NCBI RefSeq assembly: GCF_003334255.1
Contig: NZ_QOWU01000013.1
Source of the DNA: Escherichia coli
GTDB taxonomy: Bacteria; Pseudomonadota; Gammaproteobacteria; Enterobacterales; Enterobacteriaceae
Reading direction: 5' to 3' (one strand)
Length of the DNA stretch: 64,000 nucleotides
In this document: positions 1,001 through 38,953 of the stretch, piece by piece
Position numbering within the stretch: position 1 is the stretch's first letter
Layout: the number at the start of each line of letters is the position of its first letter
The notes under the pieces: model-generated
Database searches by the model: none
Told to the model about the DNA's origin: nothing
What the model saw: only the letters and a program-made list of their open reading frames with translations
Program-made: the position numbers and the translations under genes

Positions 1001-2017
1001 ATGTCCACATTACGCCTGCTCATCTCTGACTCTTACGACCCGTGGTTTAACCTGGCGGTGGAAGAGTGTATTTTTCGCCAAATGCCCGCCACGCAGCGCG
1101 TTCTGTTTCTCTGGCGCAATGCCGACACGGTAGTAATTGGTCGCGCGCAGAACCCGTGGAAAGAGTGTAATACCCGGCGGATGGAAGAAGATAACGTCCG
1201 CCTGGCGCGGCGCAGTAGCGGTGGCGGCGCGGTGTTCCACGATCTCGGCAATACCTGCTTTACCTTTATGGCTGGCAAGCCGGAGTACGATAAAACTATC
1301 TCCACGTCGATTGTGCTCAATGCGCTGAACGCGCTCGGCGTCAGCGCCGAAGCGTCCGGACGTAACGATCTGGTGGTGAAAACCGTCGAAGGCGACCGCA
1401 AAGTCTCAGGCTCGGCCTATCGCGAAACCAAAGATCGCGGCTTCCACCACGGCACCTTGCTACTCAATGCCGACCTCAGCCGCCTGGCAAACTATCTCAA
1501 TCCGGATAAAAAGAAACTGGCGGCGAAAGGCATTACGTCGGTACGTTCCCGCGTGACCAACCTCACCGAGCTGTTGCCGGGGATCACCCATGAGCAGGTT
1601 TGCGAGGCCATAACCGAGGCCTTTTTCGCCCATTATGGCGAGCGCGTGGAAGCGGAAATCATCTCCCCGAACAAAACGCCAGACTTGCCAAACTTCGCCG
1701 AAACCTTTGCCCGCCAGAGTAGCTGGGAATGGAACTTCGGTCAGGCTCCGGCATTCTCGCATCTGCTGGATGAACGCTTTACCTGGGGCGGCGTGGAACT
1801 GCATTTCGACGTTGAAAAAGGCCATATCACCCGCGCCCAGGTGTTTACCGACAGCCTCAACCCCGCGCCGCTGGAAGCCCTCGCCGGACGACTGCAAGGC
1901 TGCCTGTACCGCGCAGATATGCTGCAACAGGAGTGCGAAGCGCTGTTGGTTGACTTCCCGGAACAGGAAAAAGAGCTACGGGAGTTATCGGCATGGATGG
2001 CGGGGGCTGTAAGGTAG
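1001..2017 (+). CDS. lplA: lipoate-protein ligase A
   Basis: 338-aa [28 protein letters not shown]... matches recalled LplA; expected length and synteny. Confidence 0.95.
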
Positions 2018-3349
2018 TTACCCGCCCATGCGGGCAACTTTCTCTTCGATTTGCCGGATTTTTTCCGGCATTTCTTGCGCAATGTGGCGAAACGCCTCGC
2101 TGATACGCGGATCTCTGGCGACCGTTTGCCAGAACTGCTGCGCCAGCGGGATCGCCGTTAACCAAGCGCTTTTACTGACGTTAAGATCAAACTTCACCTC
2201 AATGGCAGCATCACGCAGCATTCCAGCGCTGTTTGGTGCATAGACCATCGGCAGCATGTCGTAGACGGGCGTCAGCGCAAATGGCGGTTCAGATAAATAA
2301 AACGATAAATTACCTGCGTGCATATCGCTGTTGGCGATAAGTCGCCCAAATGCCCAGATCACTTCTGTTTGCGCCACGCTCTGGTGAGTGACAAGTTGTT
2401 GCTCACACAAACGGCGCATTGCCTGCGGCCACGATCCCGGAGAAGAGATAAACTCACTCTGCACCGCCTCCAGCGACACAATAGGCAAGCGACCATCGTT
2501 ACCTTTGCAGTCAAAGCGTTCCGCTTCGAGGAATACCTGCCTGTTACTTGTTACAAGCACCGTTGACTCGATGGCGTGGATCCCACCGTCACGCAGGATT
2601 TGCGCGGCAATAGATTCAGCAATTAGCAGGTCACCCCAACGTTGGCTGACCGCGGTTTGCTGTGGTACGGTGAATTTCACCAACACATGTTTATTGCCTG
2701 ACGGCGTTTGTGCATAGTAGGTAAATTTTGGCTGCTCGCCGCCCGCAGAAGAACCCACAATTTCTCCTGCCAGTGCATCACTTGCCAGCTGTTCGTAATG
2801 GGTGAGTTTTTGATCCAGAGGAATTTCCGCAGGGTGTTGTGCAGTAATCCATCGCTGATAATTCCCCTCCCCGACCAACCAACCGCCAGTATATTCACCG
2901 TTAAATACGGTCAGGGCGTAGAGCACATCTTCTTCCTGCCAGAGACGTATATCATCAGTCAGATTCAGTTGCGCGGCTAACTTCCTGCCCCACGCGCGCC
3001 CTAAAAAGCCCTGCGGTCGGAGATCGGTCAAATACCAGGGCAAACCATCAAACCACTGTTCGTCGCCATCTGCGCCTGTTACCAGACAACTTCCCTGCGG
3101 CCAGCACAACCGGATGTCGGCGAATTTATGCGCCTTTCCGGTATCGTCCACCCGCCAGACGGGAATACGCTCAATTCCGCGATAAGGACGCAGCAGTGCA
3201 TATCGCGTTGCCCGTGCTTTACCAAAGCGAATCACCCGATCTTCTCTGGCAACAAGGCGTGAGAACGTCGCCTGACTGATTGCCAGACGCTGGCGCAATT
3301 CCGGGGCAGAACGCGGCCCTTGCAGTAAAAGATCAGTCAGCTCGCTCAT
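2018..3349 (-). CDS. yjjJ: HipA-like Ser/Thr kinase family protein (HTH + HipA domains)
   Basis: 443-aa ORF convergent with lplA; size and position match yjjJ. Confidence 0.85.
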   Translation of the reverse strand: MSELTDLLLQGPRSAPELRQRLAISQATFSRLVAREDRVIRFGKARATRYALLRPYRGIERIPVWRVDDTGKAHKFADIRLCWPQGSCLVTGADGDEQWFDGLPWYLTDLRPQGFLGRAWGRKLAAQLNLTDDIRLWQEEDVLYALTVFNGEYTGGWLVGEGNYQRWITAQHPAEIPLDQKLTHYEQLASDALAGEIVGSSAGGEQPKFTYYAQTPSGNKHVLVKFTVPQQTAVSQRWGDLLIAESIAAQILRDGGIHAIESTVLVTSNRQVFLEAERFDCKGNDGRLPIVSLEAVQSEFISSPGSWPQAMRRLCEQQLVTHQSVAQTEVIWAFGRLIANSDMHAGNLSFYLSEPPFALTPVYDMLPMVYAPNSAGMLRDAAIEVKFDLNVSKSAWLTAIPLAQQFWQTVARDPRISEAFRHIAQEMPEKIRQIEEKVARMGG

Positions 3350-18454: not shown

Positions 18455-18560
<106 letters not shown>

Positions 18561-18647
18561 ATCTGCCCCCGCATGCATACCAAACCTGCACGCTAGTTTC
18601 CTGATGGACATTTTTCCAGCAATTACACCTCTGTCGATAATTAACTA

Positions 18648-18675
18648 TTGACGAAAAGCTGAAAACCACTAGAAT
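18648..18675 (+). promoter_or_regulatory. sigma70 promoter of the tRNA-Leu gene
   Basis: TTGACG (-35), 16-bp spacer, TAGAAT (-10), about 40 nt before the mature tRNA 5' end. Confidence 0.7.
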
Positions 18676-18716
18676 GCGCCTCCGTGGTAGCAATTCTTTT
18701 TAAGAATTGATGGTAT

Positions 18717-18803
18717 GCGAAGGTGGCGGAATTGGTAGACGCGCTAGCTTCAGGTGTTAGTGTCCTTACGGACGTGGGGGTTCAAGTCCCCCCCCTCGCA
18801 CCA
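18717..18803 (+). tRNA. leuV: tRNA-Leu (anticodon CAG)
   Basis: 87-nt GCGAAGGTGGCGGAATTGGTAGACGCGCTAGCTTCAGGTGTTAGTGTCCTTACGGACGTGGGGGTTCAAGTCCCCCCCCTCGCACCA with encoded CCA; one copy only. Confidence 0.95.
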
Positions 18804-36973: not shown

Positions 36974-36991
36974 TTTTGGATGATGGATGAT

Positions 36992-37022
36992 GGCCGCCAT
37001 GTGGCGGCCTGAATTATTTTTT
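36992..37022 (+). terminator. rho-independent terminator after yjiA
   Basis: GGCCGCCA/TGGCGGCC stem followed by ATTATTTTTT. Confidence 0.6.
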
Positions 37023-37316
37023 GTTCTGATCGCGCAGCATCGCTTCACGTAAAATTGCGTTCAGGCGAGTTTGATAGCCTTTACCAGGTCGCTTCAGCCA
37101 TTCCATCACATCAGCATCAATACGCACCGAAGCCTGGGTTTTCAATGGCCGATAAAACTTACCGCGTTCTGCGTTAGACCATTGCTCATCGCTGGAAGGT
37201 GGGATATCGCTGTAATCAATCTCTTCGTCGGATTTATTCGCCAGCGCCTTCAATTCGGCCTCATGCTGCACATCGAGTGTAGAGGAGGTCCCTCGTTTAT
37301 GTTTAACCATGCTCAT
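37014..37316 (-). CDS. BrnA-like antitoxin (CopG/RHH-type, DUF4415-like)
   Basis: About 100-aa ORF MSMVKHKRGTSSTLDVQHEAELKALANKSDEEIDYSDIPP... whose ATG overlaps the stop of the upstream DUF497 ORF. Confidence 0.6.
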   Translation of the reverse strand: MSMVKHKRGTSSTLDVQHEAELKALANKSDEEIDYSDIPPSSDEQWSNAERGKFYRPLKTQASVRIDADVMEWLKRPGKGYQTRLNAILREAMLRDQNKK

Positions 37317-37599
37317 AGCGACTCCTCTCTTTACGATCTGCTTTTCGTGCACTGATGATTCGAATAATTTCATTTCCGCTTTCGAAACGGATGGTATGCG
37401 CAACCAGAATAACCACGATACCGTGAACCACGCCGATAGTCTGCCAGCGATACTCACCGTTTTCTATGCGATCTTGCTGTGACAAATGTTGTGGATCATC
37501 AAACACCAACACCGCATCTTCAAAGCGGATGCCATGTTTCACCCGATTACTTTTGGCCTTGTTTGCATCCCATTCAAACTCCATTGGCATAGTTGCCAT
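37303..37599 (-). CDS. BrnT-like toxin (DUF497 ribonuclease fold)
   Basis: MATMPMEFEWDANKAKSNRVKHGIRFEDAVLVFDDP... pattern typical of DUF497; start choice (37599, 37590 or 37584) uncertain. Confidence 0.6.
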   Translation of the reverse strand: MATMPMEFEWDANKAKSNRVKHGIRFEDAVLVFDDPQHLSQQDRIENGEYRWQTIGVVHGIVVILVAHTIRFESGNEIIRIISARKADRKERSRYEHG

Positions 37600-37605
37600 C
37601 CCTAA

Positions 37606-37617
37606 TTGTATATACAA
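37606..37617. promoter_or_regulatory. perfect 12-bp palindrome immediately upstream of the brnT-like gene (candidate operator / -10)
   Basis: TTGTATATACAA is its own reverse complement. Confidence 0.4.
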
Positions 37618-37786
37618 AAATGTATCTACAATTATTCTGCAATTATAGCGTTGATGTTGGAAATAGCATCACGTTTTGGATAATCAACCATGAAATTGAC
37701 AATGAGTAAGTTGGACTTGATTCATCCAATAGAATTTCTCGCCTGACATGGCACACTAAACACCTCGCTGTCGTTAAGGGATTACC

Positions 37787-38953
37787 GTGAAAAACTATAA
37801 AGTTATTACCCCGCTTTTTCCTACCTATGCACAGGTTAAAGCTATGATGAAAGCCGTCTCAGGCTATTCCCTGAAAGCGGTACGCAATATGATTACCGCC
37901 ATTCACGAGCAAACCGGTACGCCGCAAAAACCCGTTGACTGGTCGGAACCCGACCTGTGGATCAGCGAGCGCTTAACGGGTGAAGATGCCGACATCGCCC
38001 GTCGTATTTGGGATACCGATAATCACATCTTGAACCCGCGCCACAGCTACGGCTGCTACTTATTCCTCAACTATCCCCAGTTTGATCTGATGGAAAGCAC
38101 ACCAGATGATACCTGGCAGCCCACCTCGCACGGGCAAAAATTCCTGCAAGATGACGAAAAAACGCTGCGTTCACTGGACGATCAGGAAGGCATTCTGCAA
38201 CTTCTTGAACTATTAGCTGGCCGCGAAATGTCGCGCCGCGCCGATTTATTGCCGGAATGGCAGGCCTTTTTGCATCAGCATTCGAAATTCGCGTCTGCAA
38301 GTTCAGTGAAAAGCACGCTCTACTCCCGTCTCTATAACCTTATCGACCGTGACATGGTTAACCGTGAAGGCATGAGCTATCGCATCACCGATACCGGGCG
38401 CGCCTGACTTGGAAAAGCGTTACCTGCACGAAAAAGCGATCCGCGTAAAGAGCTGTTGGAAGCGGTAAAACGCTATAACGAACAGCAAAAAGAGCTGCTG
38501 CGCGAACAAATCAGCACGATGAACCCGTACAAATTTGAACAACTGGTCGGTCAATTACTGGAAGCAATGGGCTACGAGCAGGTCGAAGTGACCAAAGCCT
38601 CTGGCGATAAAGGCGTGGACGTGATTGGTCAGGTGCAGGTCGGCATCACCACCATTACAGAAGTGGTGCAGGTCAAAAGAATGCAGAACACTATCACTCG
38701 CCCGTATATCGACCAGTTGCGCGGGGCGTTGCCTTACCACAAAGCCATTCGCGGTACGCTCATCACCACCGGGAAATTTGCGGCGAAATGTGCAGAAGCG
38801 GCGCTCTTTCCGGGTGCCGCGCCCATTACGCTTATCGACGGCGATCGTTTACTGGAACTGTTAATCGAAAATAACGTCGGCATTCGCCGCAGCAATGCAG
38901 TGGAATTGCTGGATGTAGATTTGCAGTTGTTTGATGAGCTGGAGATGGATTAA
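37787..38953 (+). pseudogene. Mrr-family type IV restriction endonuclease homolog (N-terminal winged-helix plus C-terminal Mrr_cat), interrupted by one in-frame TGA
   Basis: Track ORFs 37787..38407 and 38456..38953 are in the same frame (38456-37787 = 669 = 3 x 223), separated only by TGA at 38405..38407; the C-terminal part carries GDKGVDVIG...VVQVKRMQNTITRP resembling K-12 Mrr GDGGIDGVI...VQAKRWQNTVGRP. Confidence 0.6.

What the first reader, a model, noticed from the sequence alone, without database searches (positions are those of the whole stretch)
37014..37617. BrnT/BrnA-like toxin-antitoxin pair with a perfect palindrome at its promoter
A DUF497-like ORF is followed by an overlapping RHH-like ORF whose ATG overlaps the first gene's stop, the typical toxin-first BrnTA arrangement. 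The 12-bp perfect palindrome TTGTATATACAA sits immediately upstream, as expected for an autoregulatory operator. The pair lies between yjiA and the Mrr-like gene; I do not recall a TA module at this position in K-12.
Basis: partly seen in the sequence, partly recalled or inferred. Interest (0 to 1): 0.55.

Follow-up and report, generated by a model that had tools for sequence, protein, structure and literature searches.

The report
Known BrnT/BrnA toxin-antitoxin pair with operator
This is an ordinary, already annotated BrnT/BrnA toxin-antitoxin gene pair at the edge of the E. coli restriction "immigration control" island. The palindrome in front of it is one of two copies of a short DNA box that recurs in front of such pairs across many bacteria, so it is very probably the antitoxin's binding site.

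Summary
On the minus strand, brnT (37590..37303, 95 aa, Pfam BrnT_toxin E 9e-25) is followed by brnA (37316..37014, 100 aa, Pfam BrnA_antitoxin E 3e-17). The two genes overlap by 14 nt. The same DNA occurs in 2112 of 5426 complete E. coli genomes and is annotated there as "BrnT family toxin / BrnA antitoxin family protein". K-12 lacks it. Salmonella has the orthologue at the same site, and PDB 7VD7 is a solved toxin-antitoxin complex about 85% identical to this pair. A 2025 review already lists brnAT as a toxin-antitoxin system of the yjiA-yjiN immigration control region, so the module itself is not new.

The palindrome TTGTATATACAA (37606-37617) is real. It is one of two adjacent TGTAnnTACA boxes, the only two exact matches in the 64-kb window. 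In 105 BrnT loci from many phyla, chosen without reference to the box, it lies within 80 nt upstream of brnT in 19 (0.17 expected). All 19 have a BrnA-type antitoxin. The Brucella prototype has three such boxes. I found no paper that describes this box. In 16% of E. coli carriers brnT is truncated or deleted while brnA is kept. Interest is low.

The parts
37303..37590 (-). brnT, the toxin gene (95 aa, MPMEFEWD...YEHG, stop TAA at 37305..37303). An in-frame ATG at 37599..37597 would add MAT.
   Evidence: Pfam BrnT_toxin PF04365, E 9.2e-25, model positions 1-77 of 77. PGAP annotates 'BrnT family toxin' WP_001299718.1 at the same coordinates in strain S88. PDB 7VD7 chain A 'toxin', E 1.5e-52; Brucella BrnT 3U97, E 3e-4. 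Salmonella has no ATG at the MAT position, which supports the MPMEF start.
37014..37316 (-). brnA, the antitoxin gene (100 aa, MSMVKHK...QNKK). The N-terminal part binds the toxin. The C-terminal residues from about 59 to 96 form the predicted ribbon-helix-helix DNA-binding part.
   Evidence: Pfam BrnA_antitoxin PF14384, E 3.1e-17. PGAP annotates 'BrnA antitoxin family protein' WP_000063159.1. PDB 7VD7 chain B 'antitoxin' matches residues 14-57, E 5.6e-17. The AlphaFold model has an extended stretch at 61-67 and helices at 68-75 and 81-99, with pLDDT 84-89. The motif VRIDADVxxWLKxxGKGYQTRLNAILR is nearly invariant in relatives.
37303..37316 (-). 14-nt overlap of the brnT 3' end with the brnA 5' end (ATGAGCATGGTTAA). 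The brnA Shine-Dalgarno sequence GAGAGGAG at 37329..37322 lies inside brnT.
   Evidence: Read directly from the sequence. The same 14-nt overlap occurs in Salmonella and Iodobacter.
37606..37617 (.). Proximal BrnA box: the perfect palindrome TTGTATATACAA (core TGTATATACA, 37607-37616), 15 nt upstream of the brnT ATG.
   Evidence: The identical 12-mer lies upstream of brnT in Salmonella, A. baumannii, K. aerogenes and Xenorhabdus homologues.
37620..37631 (.). Distal BrnA box: ATGTATCTACAA on the + strand (core TGTATCTACA, 37621-37630), 14 bp centre to centre from the proximal box.
   Evidence: In E. albertii the core is TGTACATACA and in Salmonella TGTATATACA, so only the central NN varies.
37603..37634 (.). 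Composite inverted repeat formed by the two boxes (14-nt arms, 4-nt spacer TTTT/AAAA). This is the inferred operator.
   Evidence: the repeat finder pair I1, 93% complementary. In Salmonella it is a perfect 32-bp palindrome. E. coli and Salmonella are identical at 38 of 39 positions here, against 56% over the whole upstream region.
37642..37647 (-). Candidate -10 hexamer TATAAT, 7 nt upstream of the composite repeat. The -35 is poor.
   Evidence: Sequence. Conserved in Salmonella and E. albertii while the flanks diverge. The consensus scan did not call it, because of the weak -35. Its use as a promoter is inferred.
37605..37610 (-). Alternative -10 hexamer TACAAT, formed by the 3' half of the proximal box plus AT. 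The ATG at 37599 begins 6 nt downstream of it.
   Evidence: The same geometry (TTGAC -35, box, TACA(A/C)T, ATG) occurs in distant brnTA loci L101, L103, L122, L128 and L133. The window has no good -35 for it. Inferred.
36992..37009 (.). GC-rich hairpin GGCCGCCATGTGGCGGCC between the convergent yjiA and brnA genes. It is followed by a T-run on the + strand and so is the likely yjiA terminator. It may also end the brnTA transcript, although there is no T-run on that strand.
   Evidence: Terminator-like site. The K-12 sequence is unrelated from immediately after the yjiA stop codon.

Best explanation
This is a chromosomal type II toxin-antitoxin operon of the BrnT/BrnA family. It sits at the yjiA edge of the E. 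coli immigration control region.

Shown here:
- Family membership of both proteins.
- Toxin-first order with a 14-nt overlap.
- Conservation of four of the five residues needed for RNase activity in Brucella BrnT.
- Near-identity to a solved toxin-antitoxin complex.
- Two TGTAnnTACA boxes just upstream, belonging to a motif that recurs upstream of brnT across phyla and only where the partner is a BrnA-type antitoxin.

Inferred mechanism:
- brnT and brnA are co-transcribed and translationally coupled.
- BrnT is a BECR/RelE-like ribonuclease that stops translation when free.
- The N-terminal part of BrnA (residues about 14-57) wraps and neutralises BrnT.
- The C-terminal ribbon-helix-helix of a BrnA dimer reads one palindromic box through its conserved (T/S)-x-R-x-D strand.
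- Two complexes occupy the two boxes, 14 bp apart. The boxes lie either just downstream of the conserved TATAAT or across the box-embedded TACAAT, so RNA polymerase is blocked and the operon represses itself.
- If BrnA is lost or degraded, the operon is derepressed and BrnT is freed.

The biological role is not established. It could be a selfish addiction module, stabilisation of the neighbouring island, a stress response or phage defence.
For: Family membership. Pfam BrnT_toxin E 9.2e-25 over the full model, and BrnA_antitoxin E 3.1e-17. PGAP names both genes in 2112 of 5426 complete E. coli genomes (S88 table).

Solved relatives. PDB 7VD7 toxin/antitoxin, E 1.5e-52 and 5.6e-17. Brucella BrnT 3U97, E 3e-4.

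Catalytic residues. The Brucella residues are D6, E7, K9, R41 and E78 (review PMC5086665). They align to D8, A9, K11, R48 and E88 here.

Synteny. Salmonella has the orthologue at the same site (mrr | brnT brnA | yjiA), corresponding to STM4528/4529.

Operator.
- The only two exact TGTANNTACA in the window are adjacent and directly upstream of brnT.
- The box region is identical at 38 of 39 positions between E. coli and Salmonella, against 56% for the whole upstream region.
- The same box lies upstream of homologues that are only 48-74% identical, on Acinetobacter, Klebsiella, Xenorhabdus, Moraxella and other plasmids.
- In 105 loci from many phyla, selected only by a BrnT coding motif, 19 carry an exact box within 80 nt upstream. 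Shuffles give a mean of 0.17 loci and a maximum of 3. Box density is 2.5 per kb upstream against 0.0105 per kb in the rest of the same loci.
- All 19 box-positive loci have a BrnA-like antitoxin with a (T/S)xRxD strand. None of the 45 loci without a BrnA hit has the box (Fisher p 1.1e-5).
- The Brucella prototype, whose promoter is reported to be bound by BrnA and by the BrnTA complex (PMC10714953 and PMC5086665, citing Heaton 2012), has three such boxes.

Population signal of toxicity. brnA is full length in 2111 of 2112 carrier genomes, but brnT in only 1781.
Against: - No experiment on this locus was found. Toxicity, RNase activity, complex formation and DNA binding are all inferred from relatives.
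- The residue equivalent to Brucella Glu7, reported as important for RNase activity, is Ala in this allele. Other E. coli alleles have Glu. The crystallised 7VD7 relative and Salmonella also have Ala.
- The promoter is not defined. The conserved TATAAT has no recognisable -35, the consensus scan did not call it, and the alternative TACAAT also lacks a -35.
- Only 19 of the 60 BrnA-positive loci in the wide sample have an exact box. It is therefore not universal, or my start-codon calls misplace some upstream windows.
- NCBIfam and PADLOC have no model that hits either protein.
- The ribbon-helix-helix fold was not confirmed by structure search.
Confidence: 0.9

Rival explanations
1. The inverted repeat acts at the RNA level. 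The two boxes would form a stable hairpin in the brnT 5' leader, just before the ribosome-binding site, that controls mRNA stability or translation. Under this reading they are not a protein operator on DNA.
For: If transcription starts after the TATAAT at 37647..37642, the leader folds into a 13-bp hairpin with a free energy of -15.9 kcal/mol. The z-score is -3.8 and none of 200 shuffles folds as well. In Salmonella the arms are perfectly complementary.
Against: - The differences among E. coli, E. albertii and Salmonella fall in the central NN of the distal box and are not compensated in the proximal box. Pairing is therefore not being preserved, while the TGTA/TACA half-sites are.
- Many loci have a single 10-bp box, which cannot form a hairpin (4-bp arms, 2-nt loop).
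- In several loci the box overlaps the -35 to -10 region and would not be transcribed.
- The box co-occurs with a particular BrnA strand sequence.
Confidence: 0.05
2. The pair is an inactive relic. The ORFs are intact, but the toxin is attenuated or non-toxic, for example through Ala at the position of Brucella Glu7. The locus would persist only by linkage to yjiA and the island.
For: A9 replaces a residue reported as important for RNase activity in Brucella BrnT. Chromosomal TA modules are often weak or inactive (general knowledge). Sixteen percent of carriers have already lost brnT.
Against: - Both ORFs are full length and both ribosome-binding sites and both boxes are intact.
- D8, K11, K18-H19, R48 and E88 are conserved.
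- The position of Glu7 is variable across the close subfamily (A, E, S, T, D), so it may not be critical in these proteins.
- Loss is one-sided. The toxin is lost in 331 genomes and the antitoxin is short in only 1. That pattern is expected if a free toxin is harmful, and it is not expected under neutral decay.
Confidence: 0.12
3. The module is a working part of the defence island. It would act either as an abortive-infection system triggered by phage, or as an addiction module that penalises loss or replacement of the adjacent restriction genes.
For: The pair sits at the boundary of the immigration control region, next to a type IV-like restriction gene and a type I R-M system. The 2025 review lists brnAT among ICR contents. 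In E. coli the island's variable cargo begins immediately beyond, or within, brnT.
Against: - No PADLOC model hits BrnT or BrnA.
- No paper I found shows phage defence by a BrnTA pair.
- The closest relatives are on small plasmids, where plasmid addiction is the simpler reading.
- brnTA persists in a strain where an IS1 event removed the rest of the island, and brnA persists next to unrelated cargo. The module is therefore not tied to a particular neighbour.
Confidence: 0.12
4. The boxes are bound by a host regulator other than BrnA, or they are simply AT-rich promoter elements.
For: TGTATATACA is AT-rich and resembles -10-like sequence. It also looks loosely like the LexA box CTGT-N8-ACAG (my own knowledge).
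Against: - The half-site spacing is N2 between TGTA and TACA, not the LexA spacing.
- The motif occurs in phyla with very different host regulators, from Candidate Phyla Radiation bacteria to Nitrospirota and Pseudomonadota, and on plasmids. It travels with the module.
- It is absent from the 45 BrnT loci that lack a BrnA-type partner.
- It is about 240 times denser upstream of brnT than elsewhere in the same loci.
Confidence: 0.04

Closest known systems
BrnT/BrnA of Brucella abortus (Heaton et al. 2012, J Biol Chem 287:12098; PDB 3U97), the family prototype
   Same: - Same two Pfam families (PF04365 and PF14384) and the same toxin-first order.
- BrnA has a C-terminal DNA-binding part with the same TxRxD strand (TIRLD in Brucella, SVRID here).
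- Four of the five RNase residues are conserved.
- The promoter region carries the same TGTAnnTAC(A/G) boxes.
   Different: - Only 32% identity in the toxin.
- The Brucella genes overlap by a single base: the brnT gene call ends at L138 position 1746 and brnA starts at 1746. The overlap here is 14 nt.
- Brucella has three boxes spread over about 70 bp, rather than two boxes 14 bp apart.
- Glu7 is Ala here.
Salmonella enterica STM4528/STM4529 orthologues and the PDB entry 7VD7 'toxin'/'antitoxin' complex
   Same: - Same chromosomal position next to yjiA.
- 85% identity in the toxin.
- Same 14-nt overlap.
- Same two-box operator, which in Salmonella is a perfect 32-bp palindrome.
- Same TATAAT.
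   Different: - In Salmonella the neighbour is a K-12-type mrr with hsdR beyond it. Here it is a different Mrr-like (PDC-S02) gene carrying a nonsense codon, followed by hsdM-S-R.
- I found no paper for 7VD7 in the library. Its source organism is inferred from sequence identity only.
BrnT/BrnA pairs of small Acinetobacter plasmids (for example the 8.7-kb A. baumannii plasmids)
   Same: About 58% identical toxin, nearly identical BrnA DNA-binding motif, and an identical TTGTATATACAA box about 15 nt upstream of brnT.
   Different: These are plasmid-borne and presumably act as plasmid addiction modules. They have a single exact box plus a degenerate second one.
Other toxin-first type II modules of the RelE/ParE (BECR) superfamily, such as HigBA and MqsRA
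   Same: Toxin-first order, an antitoxin whose DNA-binding domain is C-terminal, and autoregulation through palindromes at the promoter (review PMC11980606).
   Different: Their antitoxins use helix-turn-helix domains rather than a ribbon-helix-helix, and both partners belong to different Pfam families. They are not hit here.

Membership tests
BrnT/BrnA type II toxin-antitoxin family | The toxin carries the BrnT_toxin (DUF497, PF04365) domain. | tested here: met
   E 9.2e-25, model positions 1-77 of 77. Brucella BrnT: PDB 3U97 E 3e-4, BLASTP 2e-10.
BrnT/BrnA type II toxin-antitoxin family | The partner carries the BrnA_antitoxin domain (PF14384). | tested here: met
   E 3.1e-17, residues 37-93, model positions 1-68 of 68.
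BrnT/BrnA type II toxin-antitoxin family | Bicistronic arrangement with the toxin gene first, same strand, adjacent or overlapping. | tested here: met
   brnT 37590..37303 and brnA 37316..37014, with a 14-nt overlap. T/A order is listed for the family in PMC11980606.
BrnT/BrnA type II toxin-antitoxin family | Residues required for RNase activity in the prototype (D6, E7, K9, R41, E78). | tested here: inconclusive
   D8, K11, R48 and E88 are present. E7 corresponds to A9 in this allele. Other E. coli alleles have E, and the close subfamily varies at this position.
BrnT/BrnA type II toxin-antitoxin family | The antitoxin C-terminus is a ribbon-helix-helix DNA-binding domain. | tested here: inconclusive
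BrnT/BrnA type II toxin-antitoxin family | Toxin and antitoxin form a neutralised complex. | not testable with these tools
   PDB 7VD7 is a solved complex of proteins about 85% identical to this pair. Its antitoxin chain covers BrnA residues 14-57. No experiment exists on this allele.
BrnT/BrnA type II toxin-antitoxin family | BrnA or the BrnTA complex binds its own promoter and autoregulates the operon. | tested here: inconclusive
   Computational support only: two boxes conserved across species and phyla, co-occurring with BrnA, and also present in the Brucella promoter. Binding was not measured.
BrnT/BrnA type II toxin-antitoxin family | The toxin arrests growth and the antitoxin rescues it. 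| not testable with these tools
   Indirect evidence only: in 331 of 2112 carrier genomes brnT is truncated or deleted while brnA stays full length.
Known anti-phage defence systems (PADLOC-DB v2) | A protein matches a model of a known or candidate defence system. | tested here: not met
   No hit for BrnT or BrnA. The neighbouring split ORFs match PDC-S02 and Mrr-like type IV restriction enzymes.

The most novel reading that the evidence does not exclude
brnTA may be more than a passenger: it could be a functional component of the immigration control island. One possibility is an abortive-infection toxin released when phage shuts off host expression. Another is an addiction module at the yjiA boundary that penalises loss or replacement of the neighbouring restriction genes.

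A more modest and better supported novelty is the 'BrnA box' TGTAnnTACA as an operator code shared across phyla and read by the conserved (T/S)xRxD strand of BrnA. I found no paper describing it. I put about 0.8 on the box being real and about 0.5 on it being undescribed. That estimate is separate from the probability given below.
Probability: 0.15. Interest if true: 0.5.

Novelty: already known. Interest (0 to 1): 0.17.

Why it matters
For the genome scan, this is a correct call on an ordinary feature. It is a member of a characterised toxin-antitoxin family, already annotated in thousands of genomes. A near-identical complex has been solved, and a review names the system at this site.

Two by-products have modest value. 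First, the comparative analysis gives a sequence rule (TGTAnnTACA boxes just upstream of brnT) for recognising BrnA operators across bacteria. The window's two-box operator offers a clean EMSA or footprinting substrate. Second, the E. coli population shows one-sided decay: the toxin is lost and the antitoxin kept in 16% of carriers. That is natural evidence that the toxin is, or was, active.

Tried and rejected
- NCBIfam gave no hit for either protein, so PGAP's names must come from other evidence.
- PADLOC gave no hit for BrnT or BrnA.
- The phage collection gave one hit, which is a Salmonella chromosomal contig filed there and not a phage.
- Literature searches were mostly unproductive.
  - 7VD7 and STM4528 returned nothing relevant.
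  - An 'anywhere' search on locus tags returned only noise.
  - The Salmonella TA survey Sci Rep 2015 does not mention the locus.
  - The Heaton 2012 paper is not held, so its content is cited through reviews.
  - Two searches failed for lack of capacity.
- The sigma-70 consensus scan did not call any minus-strand promoter. I could not settle which of the two -10 candidates is used.
- I considered a LexA box and rejected it because the half-site spacing is wrong.
- I considered an RNA leader hairpin and rejected it as the primary function, because substitutions are uncompensated and other loci have single boxes.
The wide sample is therefore arbitrary and not exhaustive.
- My antitoxin calls in that sample use an HMM built from ten close relatives, and the toxin start was taken as the nearest upstream ATG. 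Box frequencies among BrnA-positive loci are consequently rough.
Full report
WHAT IS THERE

Both ORFs lie on the minus strand. The toxin gene brnT runs 37590..37303 and encodes 95 aa (MPMEFEWD...RYEHG). The antitoxin gene brnA runs 37316..37014 and encodes 100 aa (MSMVKHK...DQNKK). PGAP places the start at 37590. Salmonella has no ATG further upstream, which supports that start.

The genes overlap by 14 nt (ATGAGCATGGTTAA). This is not an ATGA-type junction. The Shine-Dalgarno sequence GAGAGGAG sits 5 nt before the brnA ATG. A GC-rich hairpin at 36992-37009 separates the convergent yjiA and brnA genes.

FAMILY ASSIGNMENT

The toxin matches Pfam BrnT_toxin (PF04365, formerly DUF497) over the whole model, E 9.2e-25. 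The antitoxin matches BrnA_antitoxin (PF14384), E 3.1e-17. NCBIfam and PADLOC have no model for either protein.

Against the PDB, the toxin hits 7VD7 chain A ('toxin', E 1.5e-52) and the Brucella prototype 3U97 (E 3e-4). The antitoxin hits 7VD7 chain B ('antitoxin'), which covers residues 14-57. The N-terminal half of BrnA is therefore the toxin-binding part and the C-terminal part is left for DNA binding.

An AlphaFold model of BrnA shows an extended stretch at 61-67 followed by helices at 68-75 and 81-99, with pLDDT 84-89. That is the expected strand-helix-helix order. Structure searches gave no match, so the ribbon-helix-helix assignment rests on topology and on the literature (PMC11980606).

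A review (PMC5086665) gives Asp6, Glu7, Lys9, Arg41 and Glu78 as the residues needed for RNase activity of Brucella BrnT. Four of them align with D8, K11, R48 and E88 here. Glu7 aligns with Ala9. Other E. coli alleles have Glu at that position, and close relatives vary there.

HOW COMMON IT IS AND WHAT IS ALREADY KNOWN

The 801-bp region occurs once per genome in 2112 of 5426 complete E. coli genomes, at 95-100% identity. It is annotated there as 'BrnT family toxin' and 'BrnA antitoxin family protein'. The window is identical to strains ATCC 11775 and S88 over this region and collinear with ATCC 11775.

K-12 MG1655 has mrr 45 bp from yjiA and no such pair. Its sequence is unrelated from the first base after the yjiA stop codon.

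Salmonella carries the orthologue at the same place (mrr | brnT brnA | yjiA). The record's notes equate these genes with STM4528/STM4529 of strain LT2, and the toxin is 85% identical.

[quoted passage not shown] The module and its location are therefore already known.

THE PALINDROME

TTGTATATACAA is at 37606-37617, 15 nt upstream of the brnT ATG. A second box lies 14 bp further upstream (core TGTATCTACA, 37621-37630). Together they form an inverted repeat with 14-nt arms. The 10-bp core TGTANNTACA has exactly two matches in the 64-kb window, and both are these.

Close comparisons. E. coli and Salmonella are 56% identical over about 200 nt upstream of brnT but identical at 38 of 39 positions across the boxes. 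A TATAAT 7 nt upstream of the boxes is also conserved. In Salmonella the two boxes make a perfect 32-bp palindrome. E. albertii differs from E. coli only in the central NN of the distal box.

Intermediate comparisons. Plasmid homologues whose toxins are only 48-74% identical carry the same box 10-45 nt upstream of brnT. A. baumannii, K. aerogenes and Xenorhabdus have the identical 12-mer. Moraxella has TGTATTTACA, a K. oxytoca plasmid has TGTAACTACA, and Xylella, Iodobacter and S. diarizonae plasmids have one-mismatch versions. Their BrnA C-terminal motif, VRIDADVxxWLKxxGKGYQTRLNAILR, is nearly invariant.

Wide comparison, chosen without reference to the box. I scanned one genome per species for a DNA pattern encoding the BrnT N-terminal motif FEWD..K...N..KHG. 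Of these, 105 loci had a full-length toxin and at least 80 nt of upstream sequence.
- 19 of the 105 have an exact TGTANNTACA within 80 nt upstream of brnT.
- Mononucleotide shuffles give a mean of 0.17 such loci and a maximum of 3 in 1000 trials.
- Box density is 2.5 per kb in these upstream windows and 0.0105 per kb in the remaining 853 kb of the same loci.
- All 19 have a BrnA-like partner with a (T/S)-x-R-x-D strand, and none of the 45 loci without a BrnA hit has the box (Fisher p 1.1e-5).
- Several BrnA variants with another residue in place of the Arg lack the box.
- Tandem boxes spaced 11 or 14 bp apart recur.

The prototype. Upstream of Brucella brnT there are three boxes: TGTACGTACA at -74, TGTATGTACG at -52 and TGTACATACG at -14. 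Brucella BrnA has the strand TIRLD. Reviews report that BrnA and the BrnTA complex bind that promoter and repress it.

I found no paper that describes this consensus. The original 2012 paper is not in the library, so I cannot say that the box is undescribed.

MECHANISM

Shown: family membership, gene arrangement, conserved residues, conserved boxes, and their association with BrnA.

Inferred from the family: BrnT is a RelE-like (BECR-fold) ribonuclease. BrnA neutralises it through its N-terminal part. BrnA dimers bind the palindromic boxes through the ribbon-helix-helix, and two complexes occupy the two boxes.

The promoter is not settled.
- If the conserved TATAAT (37647..37642, poor -35) is used, the boxes cover roughly +4 to +27.
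- If the TACAAT formed by the proximal box (37610..37605) is used, the boxes cover the -10 and the spacer. The same geometry is seen with a good TTGAC -35 in distant loci. In that case the ATG at 37599 would be almost leaderless.
In either case, bound BrnA would block RNA polymerase.

An RNA hairpin formed by the two boxes is stable (-15.9 kcal/mol, z -3.8). I regard it as a by-product, for three reasons. Substitutions between species are not compensated. Many loci have a single box. In some loci the box lies in untranscribed promoter DNA.

POPULATION EVIDENCE ON ACTIVITY

Among the 2112 carrier genomes, brnA is essentially full length in 2111, but brnT in only 1781. Examples:
- An internal deletion of about 160 bp leaves a 39-aa stub whose stop codon overlaps the brnA ATG (L003, L004).
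- brnA stands alone next to Fic and GmrSD genes, with the breakpoint inside brnT (L005).
- An intact pair is followed by IS1, with the island deleted (L006).
- One copy is on a 22-kb plasmid together with chromosomal mdtM (L011).
Loss of the toxin with retention of the antitoxin is the pattern expected if a free toxin is harmful.

CONTEXT

The neighbour on the other side is a Mrr-like gene (37787-38953) matching PADLOC PDC-S02 and type IV restriction enzymes. It carries a single nonsense codon at 38405-38407 and is intact in other strains. Beyond it lie hsdM, hsdS, hsdR and symE. No evidence links brnTA to phage defence beyond this location.

VERDICT

The feature is already known and ordinary. 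The useful by-products are the cross-phylum BrnA box and the one-sided decay of the toxin in E. coli.

Noticed in passing
window 37787-38953 (+): The Mrr-like / PDC-S02 restriction endonuclease gene next to brnT is broken by a single nonsense codon at 38405-38407 (W207 to stop). The 388-aa allele is intact in strain WP7-S17-ESBL-04. PGAP marks it as a pseudogene in S88.
   Followed up: partly
L003 1531-1949 and L004 1531-1949 (E. coli strains WP7-S17-ESBL-04 and WP3-W18-ESBL-08): In these strains the restriction gene is intact, but brnT has an internal deletion of about 160 bp that leaves a 39-aa stub ending in an ATGA overlap with brnA. This is the reverse of the window, where the toxin is intact and the restriction gene is broken. 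With so few cases I draw no link.
   Followed up: partly
window 37625-37646: An 11-nt direct repeat (TCTACAATTAT / TCTGCAATTAT) lies between the distal box and the TATAAT. Strain WP3-W18-ESBL-08 has lost one copy, which places TATAAT directly against the distal box.
   Followed up: partly
L101, L103, L122, L128, L133 (distant brnTA loci): The promoter appears to be built into the operator: a TTGAC -35, a box, then -10 TACA(A/C)T formed by the 3' half of the box, with the ATG about 6 nt later. This suggests leaderless brnT mRNAs in these organisms.
   Followed up: partly
window 1782-3113; about 45590-45930; about 47966-48910: Other toxin-type genes appear in the annotation of identical or collinear strains. 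They are yjjJ (HipA-family toxin), symE (type I toxin, at the far end of the R-M genes) and an Rpn-family nuclease. All are known features of this region.
   Followed up: no
window 36974-37013 versus K-12 (L002 11865-11909): Sequence homology between this strain and K-12 stops at the yjiA stop codon. K-12 has a REP-like hairpin there (gccggataaggcgcagccgcatccggc, also present in Salmonella after brnA). The window has a different GC hairpin.
   Followed up: partly
L040 8085-9962 (Fretibacterium MAG): Four BrnT-motif matches lie in tandem about 600 bp apart on one strand. This looks like an array of brnTA-like pairs whose BrnA lacks the Arg strand and which have no box.
   Followed up: no
window 18481-18803: Three tandem tRNA-Leu genes, as annotated in ATCC 11775. 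In S88 a prophage with an integrase lies beyond yjjG, where the window instead continues with prfC. The window is therefore not from S88.
   Followed up: no
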